DNA of 64,000 bases from Prorocentrum cordatum (GCA_963575745.1 CAUYUJ010000294.1:1-64000); one strand, 5' to 3'. Positions 33,494 through 63,160 are shown, counted from the stretch's first letter. Program-made: numbers and translations. Notes: generated from the letters alone by a model not told the origin.

Positions 33494-33528
<35 letters not shown>

Positions 33529-35628: not shown

Positions 35629-35687
<59 letters not shown>

Positions 35688-43809: not shown

Positions 43810-43849
<40 letters not shown>

Positions 43850-44283
43850 TCTCTCCCTCTCTCTCTCTGCCTCTGCTTCTTGAACGGGGCTCCTCTGGAT
43901 CATAGGCGGAGGACAGACGTTGTTTTTAAGTCCCCTTTTCAGGTATTCCCCCCAGGACGTTGCTGCCGGACATCCGCTTCGACTTTCTGCACTCTTCCCC
44001 CACACCCGCCCCGGTGAGGACCATCATAGGCCTCACCAGTGAGGACCATCATAGGCCTCACACCCCCTGCGGCTGCCATCATAGGGGCCGCGGGGGTCGC
44101 CCTCTCCCACCAATACACCAATACACCAATACTTCACGGCGTCAATAGCCAATGGAGGGGGCCGAGGACCTCCCTGCAGCCCCTCGGCCAACGAAGACGG
44201 CTGCAGGGAGGGGTCCAAACGTACCTCCACCTTTATGCACCAATCTACCAACACACCAGTAAACCAACTCCTCATATTCCTCC
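39576..44283. repeat. Tandem array of three ~1.56-kb units (starts at 39576, 41126, 42708; stub at 44273)
   Basis: Units of 1550, 1582 and 1565 bp, each starting CATATTCCTC. They are highly similar and differ mainly in internal (GT)n and (CT)n tracts plus scattered substitutions. Confidence 0.95.
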
Positions 44284-44377
44284 TCCCCCCACTCCTCCCC
44301 CTCCCCCTCCTCCCCCCCCCTCCTCCCTCCACGCTTCCCCCTCCCCCTCACTGCCGCCCCCCCATCCTACTCACTGC

Positions 44378-44507
44378 TCAGCCCGCGCCCGTGCCGTTCA
44401 GCGCCGCGTTCGCGTCCACGGCCCGCTGCAGCGCCGCGGCGGCGCGCGGTCCGAAGGCCAGGCCCTTGTCGGGGTGCAGCAGGAGGAGCAGCCGGCGGAA
44501 CTCCCGC
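44378..44507 (-). CDS. DUF4126-J gene terminal exon with J-domain HPD motif (REFRRLLLLLHPDKGLAFGPRAAAALQRAVDANAALNGTGAG*)
   Basis: CAG|G acceptor, HPDK motif, TGA at 44380-44378. Confidence 0.85.
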
Positions 44508-47500
44508 CTGCGTTCTGGGCAAGAGCCACCCCCATTACGTCGGGCTTCTCCCCCTACAAGTGGATTTGCACAACACATGAAAAATACCCCACAAGTATGT
44601 AAAACATATTCAAACATGGTCAAAACATTGCCCCCAGACCATGTTTTTACTATTTTCGAATATTCCTCCTGTAGAGGGGCACGCCCGACTTAAGACTACC
44701 ACGAAGCAAGGACCGACCGTTCCAGCATTCCTGGAGGCCTACCATGACATGTTCTTCGAACCCAACAATGTTCTAAGAACACAAACGGTGCTCTTAGAGC
44801 ATAAACCCGATGAGTTAAAACAATGCAGTAGTTAAAACAATGCAGTTGCAGCCAGAACTGTTCCAGGAACATTTCGTGCAAACCACAAAAAAAATCCGAA
44901 CATTCTGTGGTGTGCCTATAGGCAAGCCGGGACGCTTCGCCACTGCTTGATACCAGCAAAATTCCATAGAATTCCCTTACCAAAGGCCACCCCCCGAGCT
45001 GGTGGCACTCCGCTCCGGGCACCTTCTGGGGGCGCGCCCGGAACGGGGTGCCATCAGTTCGGGGTGGGGAGCGGCCAGCCCGCCTAGCTGGTGGTGGTGG
45101 TTCTTCCTTCTCTGGTAAAGGATCAGAAACCGATTCGAATCCGGCTGGCCGCAGCCGACGTCACATCGCATCGACCAGATCGGGATGGACCCTTGTCTTC
45201 GGGGGGCAGCAGGCGCCAGAAGACAGTAGGAGACAGGAGGGCGGAAACAAGGGGTTGCGAAAGGTGACCCTGGCCGCCCCGCCTCGGCACAAGCTTGAAG
45301 TTTCTCGAAACACTTGGTGTGCCATCGAGGGCATTTCGAGGAAGCGCCCTCGCGACCCCCTGCCCTGGCCCGAGGTGCCCCTGGCATTCGCTCCAATTTG
45401 GAGCCCCTGGGGCCCTCGGGGCCACGTCGGGGGTGCTGTGGAAGCCGGTCGGATCTGGGAATAGGATCGGCTTGACACGTGCATCGGATCGGTCTCCACC
45501 ATCACGGGGCCAGAATCCAATCGGGTCAGCTTCGCCAGAATGCATAACAACGCTATGCAAATATCTGGCCGTATCGGATCGTCGGACAATTCTGAAGTCA
45601 ATCGGATTGAACCGGCCGAAACCGATATCGAATCGGATGGACATGAACCCTGAGTGGAGGGGGTCCAGGATGGCGGGGAGAAGGAGGAGCGGGAGAAGGG
45701 GAGGGGGAGGAAAAGAAAGAGCGGGAGATGAGGGAGGATAAAAAGGGGAAGAGGGGAGGCGTGGGAGGTCGAAGAGGGCGAGGAAGAGAGGCGAGGGACG
45801 ATGAGGTTCATGGGGTGAGGAAAGATGGGCGACGGCGGCACGGAAGGAAAAGCAGGAAGGGTGGCGGCGCTGCGGCACTGCGGAAGCTGGCACACAACAC
45901 GAATGCGGAAGAGCATCGCAATGAAGAGGGGCAAGAGAGACGGGGAGGAGGAAGGCCGTGATCCAGGAACGTGTTTGAACAAAGCAGGAAAGGGTGCCCC
46001 CCTCCTCCTCCTCCCCCTCCCCCCCCCCCTCCTCCTCCTCCTCCTCCTCCTCCTCCTCCTCCTCCTCCTCCTCGCTGCGCCCACTGAGTGTGAAAGGCAT
46101 CGGCCGCCCGCACGCACCGAGCCTTCGCTGGTGTAGGCTGCCTCCGCCCAGCACGGCGCCCAGGTCTGGGCAAACGAGGATGCGCTCCACCTCGAAGGCC
46201 GCCTCTGCCTGACTGCCTGAGAGGAGGAGGCAGAGAGGACAGAAAGGGAGACCGATTCCCCCTGAAACCCCCGAGAGGCCCCGTGGAGATCTAAACGGCT
46301 ACCTGGATTCCCCCTCCAGAAGCCTCCAGGGGCACGGTAGCAGGATGGGCGGCAGGCCACTATTGAAGGGGCCCTGGGACACACGAGCAAATAGACACGC
46401 CTCACAGGATTCCCCATCGTTTCCCATATGTTCGGGGCTTTTGTCTTCCCCCCCCCCACTTCCCATATGTTCCCCTATTTTCTGGGGAGTCGACGAGAAC
46501 CTGTGTCTGTGTGTCTGTGTTCCCTCCTGAAGCCATGTACCCTCAATGACCGCACGATCGAGCCTGCTGGGCGGCACGCTGGACCTTCGTGCTGGCTTAG
46601 ACGTGAAGCCCGAACCGCACAGCCCCTTTGGGCGTGAGCGAATTTAGCAACACAGGAGCGAGAGAAAGAGGGGAGCAGGACGACGACAAGGAGACAAGGC
46701 GAACCATGACGAGAGCGAGGACGGAACGGAGGAGGAGTGGAGGAGAAGGCTGATGATGACACTTAGAAAATGCACGCTGGGGAGCGAAAAGGAAACTAAC
46801 CGGGGTGAGGAGGGCAACGATGCCAAGAACGTTTCTGGCCGACGAAAATCGGGAGGAAAACGGAAACAAAGATAAATAATACAGCTACTGAGGTGAAGGA
46901 ACAACTTCCATCATCCTTTTGGGCTACAGATGGCCGGTTGGTCTGCACCAAACTCCACTCTGCAATGAACACCATGGGAGGGAGCTGCCCTTCTCTCCCC
47001 TCGAAGACAAGTTGGCCCACGAAGCCCTGGAGATGCCACCAAGACGGGCCGAAGGGCCTCCAAGTGGCCCCGCGGGCTCCAGACGACCCACAACCCCCGA
47101 GACCGCCCACGAGTCCCCGAGGCGCGTCGACAGGTTCCGTTCACATCGTGGACGCCCCGTGGACGCCTCAATCTGGCCTGAATGGGGGGGGAACCACCAA
47201 GACAGCCATAAAAAACAGAACGCCAAGAGCCATCGAATAAACCACCCATCGCCGATCGATGCCGGCCCCAGCCCAAACCCGCAGAAACAAAAAAAAAACG
47301 CACTTCCAAAGGACGCCCCAACAAAGGCCATGTGCGTTTCTGAACCACGCCCGCCAAAAACAAAGGCCATGCGTTTCTGGACCACGCCCGCAAGAACCTG
47401 GCGAGAGATCCGTTCACCCGACGCGTCTTGACTCAAGCGTGTTCAACAAGCGGGGGGGCGGCGGCGATTCGTCGCAAATGTTTTCGATGAGAATATGCCG

Positions 47501-49702
47501 AATGGGCGGGCCCACAATCGAACTATGGCCATACATCATCATCTCGCGAACGACCGGTCTTCCGCGGAATTGACGGTCTGCGTGCGCGCCATCTGTGGAC
47601 AGACAAACCAGGCTGGAAAAGAGTACCAACAACACAACGTTTGAATTCGTTGGAAGCAGGTTGGAACCCCGCCCGCTTCGTGAACACGAGGGATAAAGGA
47701 AGACCAGTGGACCCTTGAAGTAGGAAAGCGTTTGCATTGTAAGACGTGACGCAAGCGAGGATGAAGTCGGGTGAGGGTAAACGACAATCTGTCAGGTCCA
47801 CCGGCCCTGGAGGATGTATCGGGCGCCGCGGCCTTGTCAGAGCGTTCCGGGATGCTCTGACAGCGTCCCAGAACGGACTTATCCTCGTCGGAACCCCGCC
47901 CGACAAAAAAATCCGGGACGCTTCGAAAGCGTCCCGGAACAGACTGATCCTCCTCACCCCGCCCCACTGTAGATAGGTCGGTCGTTGGTGGGACTGGGCT
48001 TAATGGGACCTGGTTAAGTAACATGTACCTGGGACGATCCCTCCCCTCCACGAACCGGAACTGCCATCGCCCGACGAAACACCAGCTACGGCACTTCTAG
48101 CAAATTACCTAGTTCGGTTTGCTTCGGTACCCAATCGATAATGTCAGCTTGTGCTTAACAAAAACACCGTGGGCGCGTGATTAAACAAATGTTCCTCTGC
48201 TCGGGCGAATCGTAAGAGGGAGCGCCCGCCAAATTGAAAGACACGGCGGCGGCGCCGGTGATCAGCGCCGACGCCCAGCCGACTGCAGGAGGGCGACAGG
48301 CTCGACGCAAACGGCGCTTCTTCAGAGGAGGGGGGCAGAAGCGCCCCCAATCTATAGCGTGGCGGTCAGACCACAATCGCAACACACAAGAGGAAAAGAG
48401 GAGGCGAAGGAAAGAGGCGCCTCGGCTGGCGGGCGGTGCCGACATGACTACACAAGCAAACAAACAAAACAAACAGAGGAGCGGACGATCAGGCGGAAGG
48501 GGCTCCTCCTTCCCCCCCCTTTTCCATTACAACTTCCTACGACGAAGACGACGACGACAACGACGACGACGATGAAAACGGCGACGGCGACGGCGACGGC
48601 GACGGCGTCGGCGACGACGACGCACCGCGGATGCTCCATGGAGGGGGGTCGGGGATGCTGCGCATGCACGCTGTAGTCGTCAACGACGACGACAAAGACG
48701 ACGACAACGACGACAACGACGACGAAGGCGGCGGCGACGACGACGATGAAAACGACGACGATGGCGATGGCGACGCTCCGCGGACGACGATGACGACGAC
48801 GACGACGATGACAACGACGACGACGGCAACGACACCCGACGACAACAAGGACGAGGACGAGAATGAGGACGAGGACGAGGACGACGACGACGGCGACGAA
48901 ACACTGCGGATTTACCATGGGGGCGGGGGGGGGGTGCCACGTTGGCCCGCTGTACCCTTGTAGTCCACAAAAGGTGGACGCCGACCGTCGACGACGACGA
49001 CGACCGTTGCACGTCAGTTACCAGCTTCAAAAAGGGGAAAACAATCGCCTCGGATGTACACGATCCCTATATATAAACTATGATACGACGACGGCGACGA
49101 TACGACGACGACGACGACGCCGACGCTGACGGCGACGACGAACACGACGGACGACGACCGCGACGGCGACGACGACGGCAACTATGACAGACGACGACGG
49201 CAACGACGACGGCGACGACGACGACGACAGACGACGACGGTGGCGACGTGGACGAAGTGGGGATGCTCTATGGGGGCTTGGGGGGGTGCTGCGTAGGCCC
49301 GCTGTTGTCGGCGACGATGACGAAGACAACGATGGCGACGACGACGACGACGGCGACGACGACAACGACAAGGACGAGGACGACGACGACGAGGACGACG
49401 ACGAGGACGACGACGAGGACAAGGACGAGGACGAGGACGACGACTGACGACGACGGCGGGAGCCGCACTGCGGATGCCTTATGGGGGAGTGGGTCCTGCT
49501 CAGGCCCGCTGGACGAAGACGAGGACGACGACGTGGACGACGACGACGTCAACAACGCGACGACGATGGCGGCGACGATGACGCACTGAGGATCTCGTCT
49601 GGGGGAGGGTGCGGGGGGTGCTGCGTAGGCCCCAGCCCGCTGTAGTCGACGACGACGGCGGCGACGAAGACGATGATGATGATGATGACGATGATGATGA
49701 TA

Positions 49703-49764
<62 letters not shown>

Positions 49765-52700
49765 AAGGATGATGAGGATGATGAGGATGATGCTGATAGT
49801 GATGACGCCGACGCCGACGACGACTGTGGAACATCAGTCATCAGCCAGAGAGGGGAGAAACATTCGCCTCGGACGTAAACGATCCCTATGGCAGCTCCTA
49901 CGCGACGGGGGATGGTTCTGCGGCTGCGGCGCAGGGGCGTACACGATCCCCTCGACGGCGCCCGCGGCGACCCCCTCGCGCGCGCGATTCACACATTGCT
50001 TCGCGCCCCGTGGGGGCTGTTCATCAGCCTCGGGGGGTGGGGTGGCCTGATCTGTGAATCGCAAGCTGACAGTCGCCGGCGCCCCCTACTGGGGGGGCCC
50101 GGGCATATCCAACTCGAGTCTGTGAGTCCGCACATGCCCACTGCCACCGACCAATGGGTACACATATTTTTTGGTCCGCGGGGCGAGAGCGAGCCTCTTC
50201 CGGTAAAAGCTAGGTGGGCTACGCGCAGCTCTAATTGGGGAGACGGGGCACAGGCGGGCGGGGCCTCAGGCGGCCGGAGAGGGCGGGGCCCGAGGTGCAG
50301 GCGACCGATGGGTACACATATAGCTCTTGCAATCTGAGACGACGGCGGCTCAAACATGGGCCCTCGAGGCCTCAGAGCACCAGTGCTCCGAGCCGCGTGT
50401 GGCGACGGCCCCCGGCCCCCGAAGTCGAACGGCCGCAGCCTCAACCCGCACTCCTCTCGACTACACGCAAGATCGAACCTGGCTAATTAAGCGTGCCCTT
50501 TGGGGTGCGCGGCGTTGGAGGGGCGCGGGTAGGCCAAACCCAGGCGCGCAGGCCCGTGCCTGGGGGGACCCCTCTGGGCCCGCACCAAGGGGTCGCTCCG
50601 GCGAGGGGCCGCTCCTGCGTGCACCCGACTCTCTGATTGCATCTGCCTGCCGGCCTGCATACTCGCCGGCGCCGTCCTCGGCCTCGGCCGACGCGGCCGC
50701 CAGCAGGCGGCGGAGCTCGGGCGAGGGCCCGTGGGTCTCCCAGGGCGGCGCGGACGGGGCGCGGTCCAGCAGGGCGGCGCCCTCTCTGCCGCCGGAGGGC
50801 GGGGGTGAAGAGGCGGAACGCCAGGGGGGGGGCAGCAGGGGGGGGGCGGGAGGGAGTGGGGGAGGGGGAGGGGGAAGAAGGGAGGCAGGAGGAATGCTCT
50901 CGGAGTAGAGGGTGGATGGGGGGAGGGAGGGAGGAGGGGGGGGAAGGGAGGGAGGAGGGAGGGGGAGGAGGGTGGCGGCAGCAGGGGGGAGGGACGTTTT
51001 CGTAGATCCTCGCCGGCGATCCATCCTCGGGAAGCCCTCCATAGCTGCGCCTCGCCGGGAGCGCCTGCGCTCCGCGGGTGCCTGGATCGTCCCGAACGGC
51101 GGCAAGAGGTCAGAAGAATGATACGAAAAGAGGCTCCGGTCCACCCGAAGAGGGAGGGAGGGAGGGAGGGAAGGGAGGAGCCGTCCTCTCTCGCGGGACT
51201 CCGATGGGGGGGTCCGACATTGCTTCGAGGGCAACCATCTTGAATGTATTTGCACTGGGGCGTTGTTTTTTGGGGGTGCGAAAAAATTGGGGGGCGAGAA
51301 ACGTGGAACCGTCGTGCCTCTCTTGGGTCCCCAGCGGGCCCCATTTAGGGCACCAGAATTGCACCTGTCTCCCCCCACCCCTCCCCCAGTTCTACTGCCC
51401 CCCATTACGCGGCGCCCGATACGTGCGGCCCAGATGCATTCCAGAGGAATGCCAGTCCGCCACCTGGCCATCGCTGGGCCGTCCACTCCCATTGCATTCT
51501 TCAGATTCGTGCGTGTTGTTTTACTCGATGATCCAGGATGCTCCTACGTCCGAGAGATGCCAAGCCCCTGTAGCGCGCAAGAAGTGCACCTTTCTGTCCC
51601 CCCTACCTTGAACGCCCCCCATTACGCAACGCCCGATGCACGCGGCCCAGACGCATTCCAAAGGAATGCCAATCCGCCACCTTACCATCGCTCGGTCGTC
51701 TATTTGTCGTGCATGCTTCGGTTACGTGCATATTTTTCTCGAGGCTCCCAGATGCTCCTTCAGGGTCCTCGCCGAGAAACTTGATTTCTGTCGATGCGTA
51801 GGCCCCAGGTCTAGACCACTTCCCTAAGGCTAGTTTTTTGTCCTGCGTTGTTGTTTGACGGTCCTGAGGCCCGGCGAGGGCCCCCGCAAGCCGATTACGG
51901 CCAAAAAACCGCCGCTCCACTTTATGCTGGAGCGTCGGATCTCTGGGAATGTACACGTCCCAGTGATGCCAAGCCACTGTGCCTGCACGGTGTGGGCGCG
52001 TCAGGCTGCCAGGTGCTGTTCTGTGGGGCCTTTCTTGTGCTCGCAGAAGGGACCCGCCTCGCCGCGCCCAGATTGCATGCTCCCCCTGATCTTAAGGCCA
52101 CGATCCCTTCTGAAGACACTACGGTAGGAGCTCGACCACAAGAAACTTTCCGCGAGAAACCCAAGCCTGGAACCGCCGGACGTCCATTCATTTTTGGTGT
52201 GGGAACGTAGCGCTCTCCATGGCAAGACCACCGAAACCCAAGAAACCCAGGGCACCCTGGAGGAGCGCAGCGTCTTTCTTGACATGGGTTTCCACTGCAC
52301 AGCCGAAGCGCTGGCATAAGGAATTACAAGTAAGGAGCGGGGCCCCCCTTCTCCACGAGTCAAACCTCGATTTCCCATGAGAAACCTAAGGAGCACCCAA
52401 GACACCCTGTACAGTCATCGGCCTGAACTAAGGAACGATACATAAGGAACGAAGTCCCTTTTTTATCCCAAGGAATAACGCATGAGGAACGATAAATAAG
52501 AAATAACGCATAAGGAACTGTAAACAACAGATGTAAAGTCTAAGGAACGACCGAGCCCCTTTTGATAAGTACGTGTTCCTTACTCAAGCCGCTCACTGGA
52601 GAACAATGTGCGAGCACTGAGCCCGTCCCTCACGGAACGGGCTCCGTCTGCAGCGGCCCGACGGCGCGAGGCCGCGTTCCCGCGGCCACGACCCCTCGTG

Positions 52701-55700
52701 CGAGACAGCGTGCCCTCGCCCCGAGCTCCCGCGACGGCTCGGGCAGGCAAAGCCAAGGCAACCAAAATGGCCCGAGACGGGCCTAAATTTGGGACGCCCG
52801 AAATGGGTACGGAAAAGATGGGTACAATGCCCAACAACAAATGTTGTCCCAAACCAACAGCGGCCGCTGTTGGGCAGGCGGCCTTCTGTCTCGAATGGAG
52901 ACAGGCCGCGGCGGCGCGGACAGCGAGTCCTGTTCAAGATGAACAGGAACTGCTGTTGGGCATTGCACCCCATTCTTTCCGTACCCATCTCGCTCGTGCA
53001 GAAAAATTGCCCCAGGGCGGCCGACTATGGGCCCCAAAAGGGACCTCCAACAAGGCCCAAAGACACCCAGATTCGTGGATGCTCCTTGGATGTCGGAAAG
53101 TTGTTTGCGTTCCCGCCTTTTCGGGCTTCTGTCAGCTCGAGACGGCGCAAGACGCCTCCAAAAAAGCACCCAAGAAGGCCCCAAGACGGCCCCAAGAAGG
53201 CCCCGAAACGGTATCCTAAGGCATTTCGACTGTCCCAGACAACGCCAAGGCGGTACCACGACGGCCCCCAGGCACACACCAATATGCCAATGGGCCCCAC
53301 GACGGCCCAACATGGCCACGAGACGGCCGAAGAGGGCCCCAAGGGACACGCAAAGAATATCTCACTGGAGGCTCAGGCAGCCAAAAGACGGCAAAAAACG
53401 AGCTCCATGAACACTCGTCGGATAGTGAAAACAAAAGGTGTCACGAAAAAAAAAGCCTTCCGCTTCCTCATCCTCCTCCTCCTCCTGCTTCTGCTCCTCC
53501 GATCCTCCCCCCTATCTGAACATCCGCTTCCAACTCCACCTCCACCTCCTCCTCCTCCTCCTCCTCCTCCTCGTTTTCATCCTCCTCCTCCTCCTCCTCC
53601 TCCTCCTCCTCCTCCTCCTCCCGCTCCGCCTCGTCGGCATCATCATCATCAGCATCATCATCATCAGCAGCATCATCATCAAAATCAGCACCATGACTAC
53701 CATTACCAGCATCATCATCATCAGCATCATCACCACCACCATCATCATCATCATCAGCAGCATAAACCCCATCAAATCAACATTAACCTCACCACCACAA
53801 TCAGCATCTTCATCATGCTCAACATCGCCACAATTCTCATCGTCTGCCTCCTCCTCCTGCTCCTCCTCCGCATCATCATCATCAGCATCATCATCAGCAG
53901 CAACATGATCATCAGCAGTAGCATCATCATAATAATCGTAGTCAGCGCCATCGTCATCAGACTCGTCATCATCGACACTATCAACGTCATCATCATCATA
54001 TCACTACCATCATCAGCACCACCATCATCATTATCATCATCAACATCAGCATCGTCAGCAACATGAACATGTTTAGCATAGTCAGCATCGTCAGCATCGA
54101 CATAACCATCATCAGCATTCGCATCGCCATCATCATGGTAATCAGCATCGGCGGCATCACGAGAATCGTCCTCCTCCTCCTCCTCACCATCATCAGCATC
54201 AACGATATCATAAATGAACATCGACTGCATCATCATCGTCATCAGTACCAGCATCAGTATTACCATCATCATCAGCAACACCAATAGCATCGTCATCATG
54301 ATCAACAGCATCTTCATCATCAGCATCATCATCATAATCAACATCATCATCGTCATCCTCATCATCAACATCGTCGCCATCCTCATCACCGTAATCATCG
54401 TCAGATCCACCATCAGCATCAAATTGATCATCAGCATGACCAACATCATCAACATCGTCGTCGTCGCCATTGTCATCGTCATCGCTACCGTCATCATCAA
54501 CATCATCACGGATCTTCCAAGCCTGGAGACACACTGACATGTCACACGTGACGGCCTGCCATGCCCCCATTGAACAACCGCCACCCGAACTGCTGGGCTT
54601 TCACGGTGGCGGGGCTAACCGCAATTAACTTGATCATTCCCAAGGCCCTGACCCCAGGCCGCCTGGGACATATAGAAGGGGGGATGGAGGAGGAAGGGAG
54701 AGAAGGCGAGAGGCGGAAACGAGGAATGGAGGGAGGAGAAGAACAACCAGAAAAAAAACAACTCACAAATAGATCAACAATGCTGCGGCACACCCTTCCG
54801 TCACAAGTTCCCACCCTCACGGGTCTCTACAGGCGGTGCTCTCTGCGGGAACTGCACCCTTGAGGAGGAAGAACGTTCATGGGCCTACCATTCAGGCGAG
54901 TCCCGCTGCGAACAGGAACTGCCCTGCGACACCTGCTGACGGAGTCTCGACAGAGACCCCTGTCCTGGCAGGGAGTCTGCTCTGAGATCTGAAGCTGCCG
55001 CGCAGTGGCACACTCGATGTCGTCGTCAAATTGGACAGGCTCAATCCAAACCAGCTGTCTGAGAGTGAGCCACCCTCCGTGCTTGTAACTCGTGGAAGCG
55101 CTGGCGGCGAACACATAAGCGCGGCGCCACGGCCCGAGCCGCTCCCTGAGAACGACTCCTCGTCCATTGTTGTAGCTGTTGGCAGATTTCCAGACGGATG
55201 TCCGCGGCACTGCGGCGAACGGTGCGCATGGTGAGAACGATGCGCCCTCCCGCTGTGGGAAGCGTTGGGAACCCGCGCGCGCGGCGCCGAATCGAGGACC
55301 ACACGTTGGCTACCAGCCCGTCGTCCAGAACTGTCTCGCCGAGCTGTCGATACGAGCACGCGCGGCACGACGACGAGAACCGCGATGGGAGAATGGACCG
55401 CCCTCCGTCCGTCAGGCTTCCGTCGAGCTTCGGGAACAGTGTGCCAGGCGAAGCACCGAGCCTGCCCTACGGACACGTCTGGCGGTTCGACGAGGGTGAT
55501 ACATATATATATATATATACATACATACATACATACATGGATACATATATATATGCATACGCGAGAGGGGCGGAGAAGAAGGGTAGAGAGAGAATGCGGG
55601 GGGCATAGAATAGGATGGGGTGCCGGGAGGAGGAGGAAGGGAGGAGGAGGATGGGGAGGTGGGTAGGGAACGAGGCCGAGTCCCACGGAGGAGTGAGGAG

Positions 55701-58700
55701 CTGCGGCGAAGGGGAGGCAGGATGCGGTGGAGCAGACACGAGGCGGACGAGCAGACAGAGCAGGGGAAAAGCTGCAGAGGGAGGCTGTGGACGGAGAGAT
55801 GTGCCGAAACAGCGAGGGCAAGTGAGCAGTGTGTTCAGGGGCTGGAGCGTGGGAGTGCTAAGCAGTGGTGTCCACGACTCCCCGAATTTTGTTGGAGGCC
55901 CTGAGTGATTGCAATTCTGATGCGCAAAGACACGCTAGTACTATCAATTCTCCTTGACTCCCCGAATTTTTTTGGAGGCCCTGAGTGATTGCAATGGGAC
56001 GCACGAAGACATACTAGTACAATATCTTATTTTTGGAGGCGCGCGCCCGACCCAAACATATCGTATGCCCATCTTGTAGTAGGTCGTCTCCCGAGCGGTG
56101 CAGCCAGAATGCGCCAGCCACGGCGTATGTACTTTGAGATTCCTCGGTGCGCACGTCGCCCCTGGGGGGGGCGACGCACATACAGTAGAAGTATGTTGGG
56201 GGTGACGCCGATGCAAGTGTGCTGGAAAGTTTCGGGAGGAAGAGCACGAGGCGGAGGCGTAGGGCGGAACGGGAAGGTGACGAGCAAATCCGAGCGGGAA
56301 AAAGGCAGTCTTCATGCCATCCGCCACCCTGACGGTCAGTAAGGAACACATCAGCAGCTCTGACCGCGGTGAGCCTTGGCAACGAAAACATTCCTCAACC
56401 AAATCTCCGGCACGGCCCGAAAACGAGAGCCCCTCCCGAACCCCAAGTAGGCCTTATATCCAGCGTCTTGCCTGCAAGCAGAGGAGAGTGCAAGCGGGCG
56501 GGGAGCAAGAGGAGAAATCACCCTCGCCTCCTCCTCCTCCTCCTCGTCCCCTCCCTCCCTCACTCCCTTCCTCTGTACATCCGTATCCGTGCAACCACAT
56601 CCGTTTTGCAACCACCATCCCTCTCGTCGTGAAACTCCCCCCTCCATCCCGGCCTTCCTGCAGTCTCCTTGGTTATCCTCCCCCCCTCCCCTCCTCATCC
56701 CCTCCTCTCTCCTCCCTCGCGCTCCCAGACGAGAAAGCAACCACATGAGCAGAAACGACACGAATCGGCGTTGGCACCGCCCCCAGCACGCCACGCGCGT
56801 GCCAGGGAGGAGGGCCCAGCGCCGACCCAAGTGTACGTTTGTGCAAGAAGTTGTTTTTCGAACTCCGCCCTCCCCCCCCCCCCTCGGCTACACGCAAGAG
56901 TGACCCTGGGTAAGAGTGACCTTTGGTGCGCGGCTGTTTGGGGGCCGCGAAGGGACCAAACCGAGGCGCGCAAGCCGCTGCTACCGCTTCGTTTTCAGCC
57001 ATCTGGGGACCCATCTGTGCCCGCACCAAAGGTCACTCCGGCGAAAAGTCACTCTTACGTCTAGTCGAGCCCTCCCCCCCCGCCCCGCACACACATATCC
57101 CTTTCTGCCACTCCCGGGAACTCTTCCGGGGCGCGCTCTGGCCAGGCCTTCGAGGCGACTCCTGCCGTGGCGAGGAGGAGTCTCCCGAGAGGCCCTTCCA
57201 CGGTAAAAAAAAATGCAACCTCGAGCTGCTGGAAGAAGGAACGCCAAATACGGAACGAAGCCCCTCCTTGGCACCAGAAGAGCTCGAGAGCACGAGGAGG
57301 GCTGGAGGAACGCCCCTTCCGAACCCGGAGCGATCCTGCTTTCAGCGCCTGGGCTGCAGCGGCACCCGCATCTCTTCCTCCTCCGACCTCCCTGTGCCCC
57401 TTGAGCAGGGACCGGCCGCCCCGGCATCCCTATAAGCCTACCGCGAAATGTTCTTAGAACCCCTGAATGTTCGCAGAACCGTGCTCTTAGAAGATGAGCC
57501 CGAGGTGTTAAAACGGGGCAGCGCCAGCCAATAAGTGCTCCGAGCACACCCCGGGCAGACCACGAGAGGTTCTCAGCACATCCTCTGGTAGGCCTGCAGG
57601 CGAGCTGGGACGCTTCGCCACTGCTTGCGCTTGGGCGCCCGAATTATCCGGGGTAACTCGGGTCCGGGGTAACTCGGGTTTGGATTCCCGGAAAAGGAAC
57701 CCGAGTTAGCCCTGACCCGAGTTATCCCTGATGATTCGGGGCTCTGGACGCCCGAATTATCCGGGGTAACTCGGGTCCGGGGTAACTCGGGTTTGGATTC
57801 CCGAAAAACGAACCCGAGTTATCCCTGACCCGAGTTACCCCTGATGATTCGGGGCTCTGAACTTAACTGCTTGCGCCCCCCCCTCCTCAGGATCCGCCGC
57901 CGCGTACTCGTAGCCCGGGCCCGGCGGGCCACGGCCCGGCGGGCCCAGGCCCGGCTTCGGCTGGTCGTCGCCCCACTGGAAGAGCCGGAGGACGCCGCAG
58001 ACGGCGCAGACGCAGAGCCCGACCAGCGAGGGGGGGAGGAGGGGAGGTGCGGGAGGCTCGGGAGGATGAGGACGAGGGAGGAGACAGAGGAGGGATGGAG
58101 GCAGCGAGGAGGAGCACGACACGGATCCTGGAGGCGAGGGGCACTCAGAGCGAGGCCAACACCTTGCTGCGAGGCACTGGGTGGGGTGCCCCTGGGGCGC
58201 CTAGGGGTCTTCGATGCCAAGCGTTGAGAAACGACCACCAGAGGCCCCATGTGAGCACCTGGGGCTCGCGGGGCACGGTGGCTTGTGAGGCCTCTTGGGA
58301 CGCTGCCAGTTTCGGGTACAGTGGGGAACCGACCACAAGAAACCTTCCACAAGAAATCCAACCCTGAGACCCCAGGACGTCCATGATGTGGGAACGTCAG
58401 GCTTCACATCGCACAACCATCGAATCCTAAGAGTCCCATGGCAACCTAGAGGCAAGCAAGGTGATTCTTGGCAAGGGCCCCCACGGTACGGCAGGTTCGC
58501 GTCGTGCTGACGTCGACGTCGGTTCCCGACTCCGCGGGGATCGTTGAACCTTGAACGATCGGCCGTTGCAGGAACGTCAGATCATTCAACATCGACCGGC
58601 TCTGGGCCACTGGCGGGGCTCTGGGCCACTGGCGGGGCTCTGGGCCACTGGCGGAGCTCGTTCAATTCGAATTCCTCTCCGTCCTCCTCCCCGTCCTGAT

Positions 58701-61700
58701 CGTCGTCGTCCTCCTCCTCGTCCTACTCCTCATCCTCCTCGTATTCCTCGTCTTCCTCCTGCTCCAGCTCCTCCTCATCGTCCTCGTCTAGGACCTCGTC
58801 CTCGTTTCTCCTCTTCTCCTGCTGCTCCTCCTCCTTCTCCAGGCACCTCGGCGGCCGAGAATAAAACCGTCTCCGATCGGTTGCACCATAGGTTCCCCCC
58901 CCTTGACCGAGACTAAAACCGTTTCCTATCGGTTGCGCCATAGGTTGCGCCGTCGGCGGCGGAGAATAAAACCATCTGCTATCCGTTGCGCCATAGCTTG
59001 CGCCCTCGGCGGCCGAGATAAAAACCGTCCCCCATCGGTTGCGCCACATAGTTTGCGCCCTGGGCAGCCGAGCATAAAACTGTCGCGTAATCGGTGCGAC
59101 CAGTCGGTTCACTTCAGTTCAGTTCAACCCAGCACAGCTCAGTTCAGCTCAGCCACTTAACCTCGCAATAAACAAGTTCAGGCTACGCCAGGAAACAACC
59201 TGTTGGTGCCCCGCGCGGATTTCTTGCATCTGTGCTGGGCCCCGGCGCGCGGACCGCGGAGGCCTCGTCTGGATTCCCGTAGCTCCGCACCCCGCAGGAG
59301 CTCCCCAGAAACTCACGAGGACGGCAGCAAGTCTTGACAGCTGGGCAGTTGGCAGCCCAGAGAAGAGTGAGGGAGCGAATGTGAGAAATAAGCGAAGATG
59401 AAGCGCTGAAATGCCAATAGGGAAACGAGAAGGGAGGGAACGAGGGATGAGAGGACGGGACAGAAGGGGCATCAGTTCTCAATTCCAAACAAGTTTTCAC
59501 CCTAAGTGAGGGTTGGGAAAAGGAACCTTTCGAAATCCAACGAAACATTAGCAACACGACACGCGGGATAAACGAGCGCAGACCCGGCGTGATCAACGTG
59601 ATATAAGAGAGCAGTTCCCATCATGAGTAAATGTAGGGAGGAGTACAGTGGAGGCCAGTCCACAAGAAACCTTTCACAAGAAACCCAACCCTGAGACCCC
59701 AGGACGTCCATTGATGTTCGGTGTGGGAACGTCGCACTTTCCATGGCAAAACCATCGAAACCCAAGAAATCTGGGGCACCCTGGAGGCAAGCAGGGTGTT
59801 TCTTGGCATGGGCCCCCACTGTAAGCACGGAGGAGAGAAATGGAGGGGGGAGAGGAAGCGATTCAGAGAAACATTCAGGCGGATATTGGGACGAGGGAAG
59901 GCGTAACAGGGAAGGGGGTGCGAGGAGATGGCAGGGTGGGGGAGGGGGAGAGGGGGAAGGTCGTGGACGATGGGAGGACTTCGGGGAGGAGGGGGAGTGG
60001 GCGAGGAAGAGGGAGGAGGGCTGAGGGGGTTGATGTGGAGGAAGACGAGGAAGCGGTGGAGAGCCCGACCATTACCAGCGCCACCAAGCCTGCGATCGAG
60101 GGGCTCAGGATGCTCATGGTGACCGCCACGGTTGCGACCAGCGACTCGCAGGTGGAGACCACGGGGTTGAGGCACCCCCCTGATTGCCATCAAGAAGAGG
60201 CGTCCCGAGGAAAGCGGGTTCTGGACCCCAGGACTTTGCCCCAAATCGTTCCAAGATGGTGTTTCACCCCGAAGTGTTACGGCATCAGAGGGGGCAGGAA
60301 AAGCCATGCTCAACATCGCAAAAACATCGGGACCGCTTGCCTTGAGGACAACTTCCCGGACCGAAGCCCTTGCGGTTAGTATAAAACATGTCCATAAACT
60401 ATCAAACAATAATGGAAACATCGTCCGCCGACTATTGTTTGACTCTTCTCGACTATGTCGGGCATGTCCTCCTACAAGGGGATCGGGCGAAACCTAAAAA
60501 TAGCAAACAAGCATAGCCAATAACTACCATCAAACAAGAATAGGAACATCGTCCCCAGACTAATTCTTTTGGACTGTTCTTGAAAATATCCCTCCAGCAG
60601 TAGGACAGGCCCGACGTAATTGATGGGCCTGTTGTCCACCACCACCACCGCCATAAGTTGGAGGGGGGAAGGAGGTGGAGGCGGAGGAGGAGGAGGAGCA
60701 GGAGGAGAAGGAGGAGCAGGAGGAGGAGGAGGAGGACCCCCTCCCCCTCCAACTTCTCGCGGTGGTGGTGGTGGACAACAGGCCCATCAGCAATTCCTCT
60801 CCACGGCGGCCCGAGCTGCTGCCCAGGGTCGCCCGGAACATGGTCTTCTGCACGTGCACGCCGCCAGCCAGGGCGGCTCCCGCGGCCGCCATGGGCACCC
60901 TCGCGAGCGACCCGCCGCAGAAGGCGGGCGCCACGGCCAGGGCGCCGCCCGCCACCGGGTGCGCGGGTACCAGGACGGCCAGGTGCTCGCTAACTGGGGG
61001 CCTTCCCGGAGCCGCTCGCTGCGCGGAGGCGTCGGCGCTGCGTCGATAACGTCCGTCGACGGAGTCGAGCCTGGGTCGAGCGGATCCCTCGGGTGGGCGC
61101 CAGGAAGATCCCCGGGACGAGCACCCGAGAATCTAGCGGGCGAAGAAGCAGTATACCATGAACGGTTCCGCCGCCTGGGACGTCTGTCCCGGTGCGGCTG
61201 GAAAGCTTACACCCTCGCGTGACACCGCAGGGGTCGAAAGTCTCCGGCCGCCCTGGGGCGAGCGTCCCCGCGACGGCGAAAGCGTTCCTGCTATGCCGCT
61301 CTTCGCCTGCCGAGGAATGGCGTGCAGGGCGTGGTCGACCGCGGGGATCTGGTCGGCCAGTCCGCCGGCCACCTTGCGGGGCCGTCAGGCTGCGAGGCTC
61401 AGGCCTGCTGCTCCCTGCGCCAATTCCAGTTTCCGGTCTCCATTGTTACAGTACTGCTTTCTGCTTCCTGCTGGAAATTGCTCCTGCTTCCCGGCAAAGC
61501 CAAAGCCAAAGCCTCATGCCTTCGCTCTTCCACGGTCCATTCTCCGAGAGGAGGCGGATGGCGGCAGGGGGCGAAGCCCTTGCGGATATCTCAAGCACCA
61601 AGGGCGGAAGAGAAGAGAGCGGCAGGAGCGCCAATGCTTCGGAGGGCCACCCGGCTTTGCGCGCATCGAGCCCCGTGGTGCCCCGCAGCGCGCGACGCCG

Positions 61701-62846
61701 CGGCGCTCTCCGCGCCCCCGCGCGGCCGCCTGGGAGCAGGTTGGACGAGGATGGTGTCACGACAGTCGGCAGCGAGCGAAGGGGGGGGGAGTGTGAATTG
61801 AGCAGGGACCGACCGTCTCGGCAGTCCTACAGGCATACCACGAGATGCTCTTAGAACCCCAGCATGTTCTAGGAACAACAGCAGCGTTCTTAGAACATGA
61901 GACCGGTGTGTCCAAACAAGACAGTCCATGGCAGAAATGTTCCAAGAACAGTTCGTGCAGACCACAGAAGGTTCTTAGAACATTGCTTTGTAGGCCGATA
62001 GGCACGCCAGGACGCTTCGCCACTGCTTGAGAGAAGGGGCGGGCTTTCTCAGAAGGCTAGGAAGCCCCCCGGCCTCCTGAAACGTGTTCTAAGCCTGCCC
62101 CGAAGACACAGAAGAACCTCTCGGAAGGCCAGAGGGCTTCCGAGAAGTCCCGCCGCACTCCGAGCAGGCCGTCTCCTTCGCACTTCCCCCCTCGCTCGCC
62201 GCCGAGTTGGACGAGGATGATGTCATGATCGGATCGGCTCAGGATGATGCGCTTCAGGACTGCACGGGTGCCTGGCGGCGCTCGTCTCTGGAGCCCGCGC
62301 GGAGCCGTTGGGCATCTGAGAGGCCCTGGAGATCCTGGGAGCCCTTCGGCATACCATTCTCAGGACCCCTTGCTCCTCTGAGCTGGGCAGCTGCTCCGCC
62401 CCGGGCCCCGACGAGCGAACCGGGACTGTCTTGGCGCCCCTGCGGGTGGCCTGTGGGCTCTGCGTGGCATTCTCGGGTGGGCGCTGGACCCCCCCTCCCG
62501 AGCGGCGCGAGGCGCGCCTCAGGGGCCCTTCTTTCGACGATGTGATGCTCGTGCCGCTGCCCGCTCTTCCGATGAAGAGCCCCATGAGCATGCAGACCTC
62601 GGGGCGCGCCAGCCAGGCAAACTCCGGGGACAGCGGGTACGCCGCCGCGTCCAGCTGGTGGAAGAGGCTCAGCAGGAACGCGGGCATCGTGGCGCGGATG
62701 CCAGCCCCGCCGCTCAGCACAGCCGCCACCGCGAAATGGTGGAAACTGCACAGCGATGCTGTGCCCGGAGCATCCGGACCTCCAGCGCCCGCAGACGCAG
62801 CGGCTTGCCACGGCTCGTCGGCGAACTCGAACCCGGACGCGGGCAT
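44378..62846 (-). CDS. DUF4126-like multi-TM domain plus C-terminal J-domain protein (~396 aa); exons 62571-62846, 61322-61372, 60811-60979, 60070-60179, 57886-58023, 57349-57399, 51037-51081, 50655-50781, 46123-46216, 44378-44507
   Basis: ATG at 62846 in GCC-ATG context. The N-terminal half reads AVAAVLSGGAGIRATMPAFLLSL...FAWLARPEVCMLMGLFI-VAGGLADQIPAVDHALH-AVLVPAHPVAGG...KTMFRA...GCLNPVVSTCES, matching the DUF4126 motifs (aGlr..lp, WL..P, aDKiP.vD, npvvS..E). The C-terminus EVERIL...VLGGG...RRREFRRLLLLLHPDK is a J-domain with HPD. The two small linker exons are tentative, and some junctions are non-canonical. Confidence 0.7.
46123..46216 (-). CDS. DUF4126-J gene exon, J-domain N-terminal part (SQAEAAFEVERILVCPDLGAVLGGGSLHQR)
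   Basis: Long polypyrimidine tract plus CAG|G acceptor (alternative acceptor at 46208); AAG|GC donor; in phase with the last exon. Confidence 0.8.
48530..49830. repeat. (GAC)n/(GAT)n island with interspersed short repeated spacers
   Basis: Seen directly; spacers of the form CACTGCGGATGCTCYATGGGGG recur. Confidence 0.9.
50655..50781 (-). CDS. DUF4126-J gene linker exon (GAALLDRAPSAPPWETHGPSPELRRLLAAASAEAEDGAGEYA)
   Basis: GAG|G acceptor, CAG|GC donor, GC3-rich; in phase with the 46216 acceptor. Confidence 0.65.
53460..54510. repeat. (CCT)n/(ATC)n microsatellite island
   Basis: Seen directly. Confidence 0.95.
57886..58023 (-). CDS. DUF4126-J gene exon 5 (VGLCVCAVCGVLRLFQWGDDQPK...YEYAAADPE)
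   Basis: Continues the TM helix of exon 4 through a 12-bp junction repeat; GAG|GA donor. Confidence 0.65.
58300..58480 (+). repeat. Dispersed repeat; copies at ~59640-59820 and ~52130-52300
   Basis: Shared CACAAGAAACCTTYCACAAGAAAYCCAACCCTGAGACCCCAGGACGTCCAT...GTGGGAACGT. Confidence 0.75.
58850..59075 (+). repeat. Four ~52-bp tandem units
   Basis: TAAAACCGT...ATCGGTTGCGCCATAG recurs at ~58861, 58912, 58966 and 59018. Confidence 0.8.
60070..60179 (-). CDS. DUF4126-J gene exon 4 (GCLNPVVSTCESLVATVAVTMSILSPSIAGLVALVM)
   Basis: CAG|G acceptor in phase with exon 3; NPVVS..E motif followed by TM-like segments; GT donor. Confidence 0.8.
60811..60979 (-). CDS. DUF4126-J gene exon 3 (AVLVPAHPVAGGALAVAPAF...KTMFRATLGSSS)
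   Basis: Hydrophobic, GC3-rich, with a GC donor. The acceptor appears to be CTG|G (non-canonical). Confidence 0.75.
61322..61372 (-). CDS. DUF4126-J gene exon 2 (VAGGLADQIPAVDHALH)
   Basis: AAG|G acceptor; ADQIPAVD corresponds to the DUF4126 ADKIP.VD motif. Confidence 0.8.
61799..62030 (+). mobile_element. Dispersed repeat family D (~230 bp); copies at 1-152 (truncated), 44703-44950, 57401-57627
   Basis: Shared start GAGCAGGGACCGACCGT-like, internal TTCTTAGAA motifs and conserved end GGACGCTTCGCCACTGCTTG; short imperfect TIR. Confidence 0.8.
62571..62846 (-). CDS. DUF4126-J gene exon 1
   Basis: MPASGFEFADEPWQ...GGAGIRATMPAFLLSLFHQLDAAAYPLSPEFAWLARPEVCMLMGLFI. The 3' end is either 62571 (GG donor) or 62565 (GC donor). 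Confidence 0.8.
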
Positions 62847-63160
62847 GGCCCGCTGCTGGACTCCTCCCCGCAGGCCCGTTCGGAAGGCCAGAGGCGCCCC
62901 TCGGACAAAATGGCTGAGGATAGGCGAGTGGGTATGGGGTCCAGGACGAGGATGACGACGATGGTGACAGTGACAGCGACACGGATGACGAGGGAGGGCG
63001 GGTGGGGGGACGCAGCAGAAGGAGAAGCACTGGCATAAGACAACCCCCGTCGCTCACGCACCCCTGGCAGGGGGGGAAGACGGGCGAGCACCACCGGGCC
63101 CCCACACGCCCCAGGCAGGCGTGGACTCCTGGTCAGGCTGGCGTGCCAACACCTGAGCTT

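What the first reader, a model, noticed from the sequence alone, without database searches (positions are those of the whole stretch)
44378..62846. DUF4126-like membrane domain fused to a C-terminal J-domain: a candidate novel membrane co-chaperone
Seen: five exons encode a DUF4126-like multi-TM domain, and further downstream same-strand exons end in a J-domain with HPDK and a stop. Established: DUF4126 is a mostly bacterial integral-membrane family of unknown function, and J-domains recruit Hsp70 through HPD. Inference: the fusion would tie an orphan family to Hsp70-dependent membrane protein handling, and the gene may be bacterially derived and later intronised. I do not know this architecture from elsewhere. 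It is invisible in the ORF track because it is split over 18 kb. A Glu usually found four residues before the Asp of 'ADKIP' appears as Gly here.
Basis: partly seen in the sequence, partly recalled or inferred. Interest (0 to 1): 0.8.

Follow-up and report, generated by a model that had tools for sequence, protein, structure and literature searches.

The report
DUF4126 membrane protein with J-domain tail
A dinoflagellate-type gene split into nine exons over 18.5 kb makes one messenger RNA that joins an orphan, mostly prokaryotic membrane domain to a chaperone-recruiting J-domain, which is a new variant of the known membrane-anchored Hsp70 helpers.

Summary
The fusion is real. RNA contigs from 4 of 4 runs laid (two are polyA RNA-seq) join nine minus-strand exons from ATG 62846 to stop 44378, with no mismatch in the listed pieces. 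The product is 364 aa, not 396.

Orthologues at 42-91% identity have the same architecture. The DUF4126 part is secure (92-119 bits in six orthologues, 85.6 in the seventh, P0019; cut-off 27.5).

The tail never reaches Pfam's DnaJ cut-off (best 22.9 of 27.8 bits). It is nevertheless a divergent J-domain:
- A profile of 8 tails hits the DNAJC27/RabJ J-domain at E 3e-5.
- The AF2 model has pLDDT 90.
- VIA-align gives Z 9.7 and 9.5, with the next row at 5.8.
- HPD is kept in 36 of 37 database tails.

The same J module, always at the extreme C-terminus, also ends single-pass membrane proteins. It was therefore probably shuffled onto several anchors.

My reading is a membrane-tethered, probably cytosolic, Hsp70 co-chaperone. 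This is a new variant of a known kind. A bacterial origin could not be tested. Four of the eight introns lack standard ends.

The parts
62572..62915 (-). Exon 1: 5' UTR (contigs reach 62876-62915), ATG at 62846, codons 1-91 plus 2 nt. Holds the acidic N-terminus and the first DUF4126 helices.
   Evidence: RNA contig pieces in 4 of 4 runs, 0 other letters (table 8). Pfam DUF4126 E 3.3e-5 on this exon alone. 91-93% identical to P0001/P0002.
61588..61599 (-). 12-nt micro-exon (the joint may shift by 1 nt) that supplies the conserved Glu of the E..AD.IP.VDH motif.
   Evidence: 12 letters lie between the joint 61361/62572 in all 4 runs (table 5c). Their reverse complement is found at 61599-61588.
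61317..61361 (-). 45-nt exon carrying the ADQIPAVDHALHAI motif.
   Evidence: Joints 61361/62572 and 60974/61317 in 4 of 4 runs.
60810..60974 (-). Exon 4, middle helices of DUF4126.
   Evidence: table 8. tblastn gives 80-83% identity to P0002/P0003.
60060..60178 (-). Exon 5, the NP..S..E helix of DUF4126.
   Evidence: Pfam DUF4126 E 1.9e-4 (profile 128-162) on 60074-60189.
57885..58013 (-). Exon 6: last membrane helix and the start of the Pro/Gly-rich linker.
   Evidence: The joint 58013/60060 has 12 letters that fit both sides.
50653..50780 (-). Exon 7: linker with the APSAPP motif and an acidic stretch. It ends at codon 291, in phase 0.
46121..46214 (-). Exon 8: start of the J module (pre-helix, helix I, start of helix II), from codon 292.
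   Evidence: The tail HMM matches residues 292-362 of the spliced model.
44362..44505 (-). Exon 9: helix II, HPDKG, helix III, stop at 44380-44378. The contigs end 11-16 nt after the stop.
   Evidence: 84-90% identical to the C-termini of P0002/P0003.

Best explanation
This is one nuclear, dinoflagellate-type gene of nine exons. Its polyadenylated mRNA encodes a 364-aa integral membrane protein in three parts. Residues about 40-211 are a DUF4126 helical membrane domain. Residues about 212-291 are a disordered Pro/Gly-rich and acidic linker that carries a PSAP motif. Residues 292-362 are a divergent J-domain at the extreme C-terminus (pre-helix, short helix I, basic helix II, HPD, helix III, no helix IV), most like the J-domain of DNAJC27/RBJ.

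Shown: the transcript, the ORF, the two domains, and conservation of the fusion.

Inferred: the membrane domain holds the J-domain at a membrane surface, where its HPD loop and basic helix II dock on an Hsp70 and trigger ATP hydrolysis. Hsp70 would then be loaded on clients at that membrane.

Inferred more weakly: the N-terminus faces the lumen or outside and the tail faces the cytosol, so the partner would be cytosolic Hsp70, possibly in the endosomal system. The J module equals the last two exons and also ends other membrane proteins, so it was probably added by exon shuffling.
For: Transcript:
- Eight joints are shared by 4 of 4 runs from 4 studies. X9 and X15 are recorded as polyA RNA-seq.
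- Contigs of 1136-1180 nt cover all exons with 0 other letters in the listed pieces.
- The joined sequence gives one ORF of 364 aa.

Conservation:
- P0002 (361 aa) and P0003 (306 aa) carry both parts.
- P0016-P0019, at 39-45% identity over the whole alignment (one search gives 42-52% over matched stretches), also carry both parts.

DUF4126:
- 85.6-119.1 bits in P0002, P0003 and P0016-P0019 (cut-off 27.5).
- A local profile matches residues 40-206 of the window model.

J-domain:
- phmmer of one tail against the PDB sequences: 11 of 12 hits are J proteins, best E 0.008.
- A profile of 8 tails: 21 hits at E<=1, at least 17 of them J proteins by the names shown. The best are 2ys8 (RabJ, E 3.1e-5) and 6jmg (DNAJC27, E 9.5e-5), aligned from the pre-helix to helix III.
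- AF2 of the tail: pLDDT 90.3.
- Foldseek: the top 5 rows are all J-domains, TMq 0.76, rmsd 2.5.
- VIA-align: Z 9.7 (rmsd 2.1, 71 aa) and Z 9.5, against 5.8 for the next row.
- HPD is kept in 36 of 37 database tails and in the window.

Module:
- The tail HMM hits 37 database proteins, always 1-18 aa from the C-terminus.
- P0010-P0015 are single-pass membrane proteins with the same tail.
- Exon 8 starts at codon 292 in phase 0, which is the start of the HMM match.

Orientation (inference):
- Paralogues P0027, P0029 and P0030 begin with a hydrophobic leader and have 60-370 extra residues before DUF4126. In P0029 these include DUF3472.
- P0037 ends in a FYVE finger (49.6 bits).
- Arg/Lys clusters follow the last helix in many members.
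Against: - Pfam DnaJ is below its 27.8-bit cut-off wherever I saw a score: 11.6-15.3 bits for P0002, 13.2 for P0003, and at best 22.9 (P0017) and 22.4 (P0070).
- Foldseek E-values are weak: 0.03 for the tail alone, and none <=0.001.
- Helix IV is missing, and one fusion (P0019) has HPT instead of HPD.
- Binding to Hsp70 was not tested.
- Relatives also yield short forms without the tail (P0001, P0005, P0006; 141-258 aa), so a DUF4126-only product may exist as well.
- Topology rests on paralogue architecture and charge, not on any measurement.
- The J module sits on many anchors, so it does not by itself reveal what DUF4126 does.
- Four of the 8 introns lack GT/GC/GA..AG ends. This leaves room for the RNA coming from another, identical copy.
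Confidence: 0.7

Rival explanations
1. The tail has a J-like fold but is not a working Hsp70 activator. It would be a pseudo-J or another protein-binding three-helix module, as in Tim16/Pam16-type J-like domains, used for example for self-association or for binding a lineage-specific partner.
For: It is below the Pfam DnaJ threshold in every protein whose score I saw. There is no helix IV. P0019 has HPT. Three-helix bundles give many middling structural matches, with Z 5-6 to unrelated proteins.
Against: HPD followed by K/R is kept in 36 of 37 database tails across sequences only about 40-55% identical. Helix II keeps its run of Arg/Lys. The two J-domain matches stand about 4 Z units above all other rows. 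The sequence profile finds J-domains almost exclusively.
Confidence: 0.15
2. The window's copy is not the transcribed one. It would be an allele or paralogue whose exons were interrupted by insertions (the four 'introns' without standard ends), and the RNA would come from an identical, uninterrupted or differently built copy elsewhere in the genome.
For: Introns 1, 2, 3 and 5 have no GT/GC/GA..AG placement. Intron 5 (2046 nt) is flanked by a 12-nt direct repeat like a target-site duplication. No DNA run and no genome were available for checking (table 5b not given).
Against: The 12-nt micro-exon lies in the window in the right order and strand between exons 1 and 3. All listed pieces match with 0 other letters. 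A low-depth contig in X1 (record 2, 60955-61130, depth 2.8 against 191) runs from exon 4 into intron 3, as unspliced RNA of this locus would, although X1 is only guessed to be RNA. The ends of intron 1 are complementary (z -3.9), as in the spliced non-canonical introns of Amoebophrya (PMC7789003, passages read).
Confidence: 0.1
3. The fusion is an artefact: a chimeric assembly, or read-through between two neighbouring genes.
For: The evidence is assembled contigs, not single reads. Dinoflagellate genes are densely co-oriented (recalled, not from a call).
Against: The same eight joints appear in 4 runs of 4 studies, in frame, giving one ORF. Independent proteins at 39-83% identity have the same order and a continuous ORF. 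No stop and no second start separates the parts.
Confidence: 0.03

Closest known systems
J-domain of DNAJC27 / RBJ (PDB 6jmg, 2ys8)
   Same: It is the best sequence and fold match to the tail: E 3.1e-5 and 9.5e-5, Z 9.7 and 9.5, 29-31% identity. It shares the extra helix before helix I, the HPDK motif, and a position at the very C-terminus of the protein.
   Different: DNAJC27 carries the J-domain on a soluble Rab-like GTPase. Here the N-terminal part is a DUF4126 membrane domain and no GTPase is present (Pfam).
Polytopic or membrane-anchored J-proteins (DNAJC22/Wurst, Sec63, DNAJB12/14, bacterial DjlA)
   Same: They work on the same principle: a membrane anchor places a J-domain at a membrane so that Hsp70 acts locally. 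DNAJC22/Wurst is listed as a plasma-membrane J-protein of clathrin-mediated endocytosis (table row in PMC5597180, passage read). Its multi-pass anchor with a C-terminal J-domain, and the architectures of the others, are recalled and not from a call.
   Different: None of these anchors is reported as DUF4126 (my recall; the searches 'DUF4126' and 'PF13548' gave 2 unrelated papers and 0). Their J-domains pass Pfam and have helix IV (recalled).
Prokaryotic DUF4126 (PF13548) proteins
   Same: Same domain over its whole length (profile 3-171 of 175), with the conserved E..ADK.P.VDH, H..K..R and NP..S..ED motifs (consensus).
   Different: Most of the shorter library hits are about 190-230 aa and consist of the domain alone. 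The window protein adds a 150-aa tail, and its gene has eight introns.
Single-pass membrane proteins with the same tail (P0010-P0015 and relatives)
   Same: The same C-terminal J module (39-54% identity to P0002's tail, alignment A1; one search gives 50-55% over BLASTP local matches), preceded by one membrane helix and an acidic linker.
   Different: They have no DUF4126. Their N-terminal domains match no Pfam family.

Membership tests
DUF4126 (Pfam PF13548) | Match to the family profile above the curated cut-off (27.5 bits) over most of its 175 positions | tested here: met
   Orthologues: P0002 105.1 bits (profile 3-171), P0003 91.8, P0016-P0019 85.6-119.1. Window exons alone score 24.1 and 21.7 bits. 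The spliced window protein could not be sent to Pfam. A local profile matches its residues 40-206.
DUF4126 (Pfam PF13548) | Conserved E..AD(K/Q)IP.VDH turn motif | tested here: met
   It is present in the RNA-supported product once the 12-nt micro-exon is included.
J-domain (Pfam PF00226, DnaJ) | Score at or above Pfam's gathering cut-off (27.8 bits) | tested here: not met
   P0002 11.6 bits (15.3 for the tail alone) and P0003 13.2. The best seen are P0017 22.9 and P0070 22.4. 7 of 8 tails match at E<=1, best E 0.001. This is a diagnostic threshold, not a structural definition.
J-domain (Pfam PF00226, DnaJ) | His-Pro-Asp loop between helices II and III | tested here: met
   HPDKG in the window. 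HPD in 36 of 37 database tails. P0019 has HPT.
J-domain (Pfam PF00226, DnaJ) | J fold: helices II and III as an antiparallel hairpin, with helix I packed on it | tested here: met
   AF2 pLDDT 90.3. Foldseek's top 5 rows are J-domains, TMq 0.76. VIA-align gives Z 9.7 and 9.5 to 6jmg and 2ys8, with the next row at 5.8.
J-domain (Pfam PF00226, DnaJ) | Helix IV after helix III | tested here: not met
   The protein ends 2 aa after the profile match. The models show no fourth helix.
J-domain (Pfam PF00226, DnaJ) | HPD-dependent stimulation of Hsp70 ATPase | not testable with these tools
   This needs a biochemical assay.
DNAJC27 / RBJ | N-terminal Rab-like GTPase domain joined to the C-terminal J-domain | tested here: not met
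   There is no GTPase family in Pfam scans of P0002, P0003 or P0016-P0019. Only the J-domain resembles RBJ.
Major facilitator superfamily (considered for the DUF4126 fold) | Six-helix MFS half-bundle | tested here: inconclusive
   VIA-align gives Z 4.9-5.6 to MdfA, VMAT2, MHAS2168 and a lysosomal peptide transporter over model residues 34-194, rmsd 3.8-4.8. By the tool's own note this is within the noise for helical bundles.

The most novel reading that the evidence does not exclude
Dinoflagellates have a lineage-specific family of helix-IV-less, RBJ-like J-domains that always sit at the extreme C-terminus and have been shuffled as a two-exon cassette onto many unrelated membrane anchors. On the DUF4126 clade this tail comes with a conserved PSAP (ESCRT-I type) motif. 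One paralogue carries a FYVE (PI3P) finger instead. Together these would mark an undescribed system on endosomal membranes that is linked to Hsp70 and ESCRT, for sorting or extracting membrane proteins. DUF4126 would be the membrane-embedded sensor or carrier, which would give this orphan family its first cell-biological address.
Probability: 0.2. Interest if true: 0.7.

Novelty: new variant of a known kind. Interest (0 to 1): 0.45.

Why it matters
DUF4126 is a widespread family with no known function and almost no literature: 2 incidental mentions, and none for PF13548. A conserved fusion to a J-domain, with a FYVE fusion in a paralogue, gives testable handles. These are which face the C-terminus is on, which Hsp70 it meets, and which membrane it sits in.

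The case also exposes a J-domain subfamily that Pfam does not call at its threshold. Such proteins are invisible to domain-based annotation.

Finally, the gene cannot be predicted with standard splice rules. It has a 12-nt micro-exon, and four introns lack GT/GC/GA..AG ends. This is a warning for gene models in this kind of genome.

Tried and rejected
- Six-frame Pfam scan of 43000-64000 with stops read as X found only one DUF4126 exon (E 0.0022). It was too insensitive for short exons.
- The same scan of 30000-44300 on both strands found no credible family (one TFIIA row, 18.7 of 36.2 bits). I therefore cannot name the neighbouring genes.
- The ESM Atlas gave no usable hit for P0002.
- Foldseek of the full model against the PDB gave no match at E<=0.001 and nothing credible for the DUF4126 part.
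- VIA-align gave only MFS half-bundles at Z 4.9-5.6, which is noise level. This does not show that the fold is new, because the DUF4126 part was not folded and searched alone.
- No whole genome is held for this window, so paralogues and copy number could not be checked.
- Earlier findings near this place and by sequence: nothing.
- Bacterial origin: not testable here for want of taxon labels. The tree of 52 domains shows only that the seven J-fusions lie in one 16-row set (SH-aLRT 98) together with 9 rows without the tail. The label needs 3 changes. Rows were limited to the window model, P0001-P0004 and P0016-P0069 with at least 140 aa of the domain. The other stored proteins were left out.
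- Complex prediction with an Hsp70 was not run. Only a bacterial stand-in was on hand, and a pass would rest on likeness to solved J-DnaK structures.
- Parts of the locus without RNA cover (for example 48032-48653, 53630-54251, 56118-56739) are not used as evidence.
- I considered and dropped the reading that the open frames after 62571 and before 61372 are coding. They are absent from the RNA.


Full report
WHAT IS THERE

The finding lies on the minus strand of a GC-rich (55-66%), repeat-rich window.

Single exons already hint at both domains:
- Exon 1 gives Pfam DUF4126 E 3.3e-5.
- The exon at 60074-60189 gives E 1.9e-4.
- The last ORF gives DnaJ only E 0.14.

A six-frame scan with stops read as X saw just one of these exons.

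ONE TRANSCRIPT

A search with exon 1 for longer proteins returned 4 hits among 1922 candidates. P0002 (361 aa) and P0003 (306 aa) carry DUF4126 and end in the same HPDKG tail as the window. P0001 (255 aa) and P0004 (272 aa) do not.

I then looked for RNA runs holding the stretch. Nineteen rows held 8-16% of its words, about the exon share. I laid four runs from four studies on 44300-62950.

In X1, X5 and X9 a single contig (1141, 1180 and 1136 nt), and in X15 two overlapping contigs, join these pieces with 0 other letters in every listed piece:
- 62572-62876/62915
- 61317-61361
- 60810-60974
- 60060-60178
- 57885-58013
- 50653-50780
- 46121-46214
- 44362-44505

X9 and X15 are on record as polyA RNA-seq. 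X1 and X5 are only guessed to be RNA.

Between 62572 and 61361 each contig has 12 further letters. Their reverse complement lies at 61599-61588, a micro-exon.

Joined in a script, the pieces give 1141 nt with a 1095-nt CDS of 364 aa.

THE MEMBRANE DOMAIN

DUF4126 is beyond doubt in the relatives: 91.8-112.2 bits in P0001-P0004 and 85.6-119.1 bits in P0016-P0019, against a cut-off of 27.5. A local profile matches residues 40-206 of the window product.

AF2 of P0002 with 144 aligned sequences gives mean pLDDT 82.9, and above 90 through the domain. It has helices at 35-48, 54-65, 74-80, 82-98, 102-124, 132-165, 170-190 and 192-216. The linker at about 217-288 has low confidence, and the tail is confident again.

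No solved structure matches the domain convincingly:
- Foldseek gave nothing at E<=0.001.
- VIA-align gave only MFS half-bundles at Z 4.9-5.6, which the tool's own note places in the noise.

I did not fold the domain alone, so I do not claim a new fold.

IS THE TAIL A J-DOMAIN?

Against:
- Pfam DnaJ stays under its 27.8-bit cut-off in every protein whose score I saw: P0002 11.6 (15.3 for the tail alone), P0003 13.2, P0012 19.7, P0017 22.9, P0070 22.4. Seven of 8 tails match at E<=1.
- Foldseek E-values are weak (0.03).
- There is no helix IV.

For:
- phmmer of one tail against the PDB sequences gave 12 hits, 11 of them J proteins (best 0.0084).
- A profile of eight tails (A1) gave 21 hits at E<=1, at least 17 of them J proteins by the names shown. 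These are led by 2ys8 (RabJ, 3.1e-5) and 6jmg (DNAJC27, 9.5e-5), aligned from the helix before helix I to the end of helix III.
- AF2 of the tail gave pLDDT 90.3, with helices at 3-15, 19-22, 28-42 and 52-69.
- The top five Foldseek rows are J-domains (TMq 0.76, rmsd 2.5 to 6jmg_A).
- VIA-align against 48,161 chains puts 6jmg_B (Z 9.7, rmsd 2.1, 71 aa, 31% id) and 2ys8 (Z 9.5) well above the next row (5.8).
- HPD is kept in 36 of 37 database tails. P0019 has HPT.

I therefore call the tail a divergent J-domain of the DNAJC27/RBJ type. Because it sits below Pfam's threshold, annotation pipelines do not see the architecture. The precomputed Pfam column lists only PF13548 for P0002 and P0003.

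DISTRIBUTION

HMMER with P0002 against 1.84 billion cluster representatives found 654 proteins at E<=0.001, 104 at <=1e-10 and 18 at <=1e-30.

- A profile of the tail hits 37, always 1-18 residues from the C-terminus.
- A DUF4126 profile hits 129.
- Six have both (P0002, P0003, P0016-P0019), as does the window product.

The other 31 tail-bearers include fragments and at least six full-length single-pass membrane proteins (P0010-P0015). These have one hydrophobic segment, an acidic linker and then the J module, and their N-terminal parts match no Pfam family.

In the window the module equals the last two exons. Exon 8 begins at codon 292 in phase 0, which is exactly where the profile match begins. 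This fits exon shuffling of a J cassette.

In a tree of 52 DUF4126 domains all seven fusions fall in one 16-row set (SH-aLRT 98), together with nine rows that lack the tail. The label needs three changes. A single gain with losses or truncated transcripts is therefore possible but not shown.

Relatives also give short forms ending just after exon 6 (P0001, P0005, P0006). These look like read-through into the next intron, though that is my inference.

HOW IT LIKELY WORKS

A J-domain's known job is to dock on Hsp70 through the HPD loop and the basic helix II and to trigger ATP hydrolysis (established knowledge of the family). Here a polytopic anchor fixes it to a membrane.

Orientation is inferred, not measured:
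- Paralogues P0027, P0029 and P0030 start with a hydrophobic leader and carry extra N-terminal sequence. In P0029 this is a DUF3472 domain (60.8 bits).
- P0037 ends in a FYVE finger (49.6 bits), a cytosolic PI3P-binding domain.
- Arg/Lys clusters follow the last helix in many members.

This fits an exoplasmic N-terminus and a cytosolic tail, so cytosolic Hsp70 would be the partner.

The tails of this clade carry P(S/T)AP in 10 of 75 cases, against 1.5% of shuffled tails. The form APSAPP occurs in the window, P0003, P0018, P0022, P0032 and P0050 (P0002 has APSAPQ). Many of these rows are related, so the count overstates independence. With the FYVE paralogue it points, speculatively, to endosomal membranes.

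What DUF4126 itself does remains open. Its conserved buried charges (E, D, K, D, H, H, K, R, N, E, D in the consensus) would suit a carrier or an ion or metal site, but nothing here tests that.

COMPARISON AND NOVELTY

Membrane-anchored J-proteins are a known kind. DNAJC22/Wurst is listed as a plasma-membrane J-protein of clathrin-mediated endocytosis (PMC5597180, one table row read). Sec63, DNAJB12/14 and DjlA are recalled, not from a call.

The new elements are DUF4126 as the anchor and the helix-IV-less RBJ-like subfamily. 'DUF4126' occurs in 2 papers of the held library, both in passing by the search listing. 'PF13548' occurs in none.

Earlier notes of this scan mention DUF4126 only as a passenger gene in prokaryotic cassettes. 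I rate this a new variant of a known kind, of moderate interest.

ORIGIN

'Bacterially derived, later intronised' could not be tested. The searchable libraries give no taxa and no genome is held.

I call the window dinoflagellate-type for three reasons:
- Four introns have G|GC..AG|G or G|GA..AG|G ends. The rule itself is recalled, not read here.
- Relatives occur in MMETSP (P0007, P0013).
- The RNA is found in marine polyA metatranscriptomes.

SIDE OBSERVATION: THE INTRONS

Four of the eight introns (1, 2, 3 and 5) have no placement with GT, GC or GA at the start and AG at the end, yet the RNA of four runs joins across them.
- The first and last 50 nt of intron 1 are complementary (duplex -57.1 kcal/mol against -38.2 +/- 4.8 for shuffles, z -3.9).
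- Intron 5 (2046 nt) is flanked by a 12-nt direct repeat.

Non-canonical introns with inverted and short direct repeats are described for Amoebophrya (PMC7789003; abstract and passages read). I could not exclude that the RNA comes from another copy without these insertions. One low-depth X1 contig that runs from exon 4 into intron 3 speaks for transcription of this very locus.

Noticed in passing
window 62571-61600, 61587-61362, 61316-60975, 60059-58014 (minus strand): Four of the gene's eight introns have no GT/GC/GA..AG placement, although RNA contigs of four runs join across them. The other four are G|GC..AG|G or G|GA..AG|G. Standard gene predictors would miss this gene.
   Followed up: partly
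window 61588-61599 (minus strand): A 12-nt micro-exon flanked by two non-canonical introns. It encodes the conserved Glu of the DUF4126 motif.
   Followed up: yes
window 62571-62522 and 61649-61600: The two ends of intron 1 are complementary (duplex -57.1 kcal/mol against -38.2 +/- 4.8 in 200 shuffles, z -3.9). The other seven introns show no such signal. This recalls the inverted-repeat introner elements of Amoebophrya (PMC7789003).
   Followed up: partly
window 60072-60061 and 58025-58014: A 12-nt direct repeat brackets the 2046-nt intron 5, like a target-site duplication. The joint can be placed at 13 equivalent positions, none with AG at the 3' end.
   Followed up: partly
window 39576-44150: Directly downstream of the gene's stop there are three tandem copies of a unit of about 1.55-1.59 kb, 96-98% identical (one segment copy 76%). 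No Pfam family was found in it.
   Followed up: partly
spliced product residues 256-261 (exon 50653-50780); P0002, P0003, P0018, P0022, P0032, P0050: A PSAP-containing motif recurs in the tails after DUF4126: APSAPP in the window, P0003, P0018, P0022, P0032 and P0050, and APSAPQ in P0002. P(S/T)AP occurs in 10 of 75 tails against 1.5% of shuffled tails, and PPxY in four. These may be ESCRT or ubiquitin-ligase sorting signals, but the rows are not independent.
   Followed up: partly
proteins P0037 and P0029: Paralogues fuse DUF4126 to other domains: a C-terminal FYVE finger (49.6 bits) and an N-terminal DUF3472 (60.8 bits).
   Followed up: partly
proteins P0001, P0005, P0006: Close relatives give short forms (141-258 aa) that end just after the sixth exon, without the J tail. 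This may be intron retention or an alternative 3' end.
   Followed up: no
window 61757-62056, 44696-45160, 57438-57572 and others: A dispersed repeat family sits in the introns. It has RNA contigs of its own and a joint 61823->62000 in all four runs, with loose ends at 61798 and 62030.
   Followed up: no
window 48539-49805 and 53465-54508: Long imperfect trinucleotide arrays (ACG/GAT/CAT/TCC types, up to 871 nt) lie inside introns 6 and 7.
   Followed up: no
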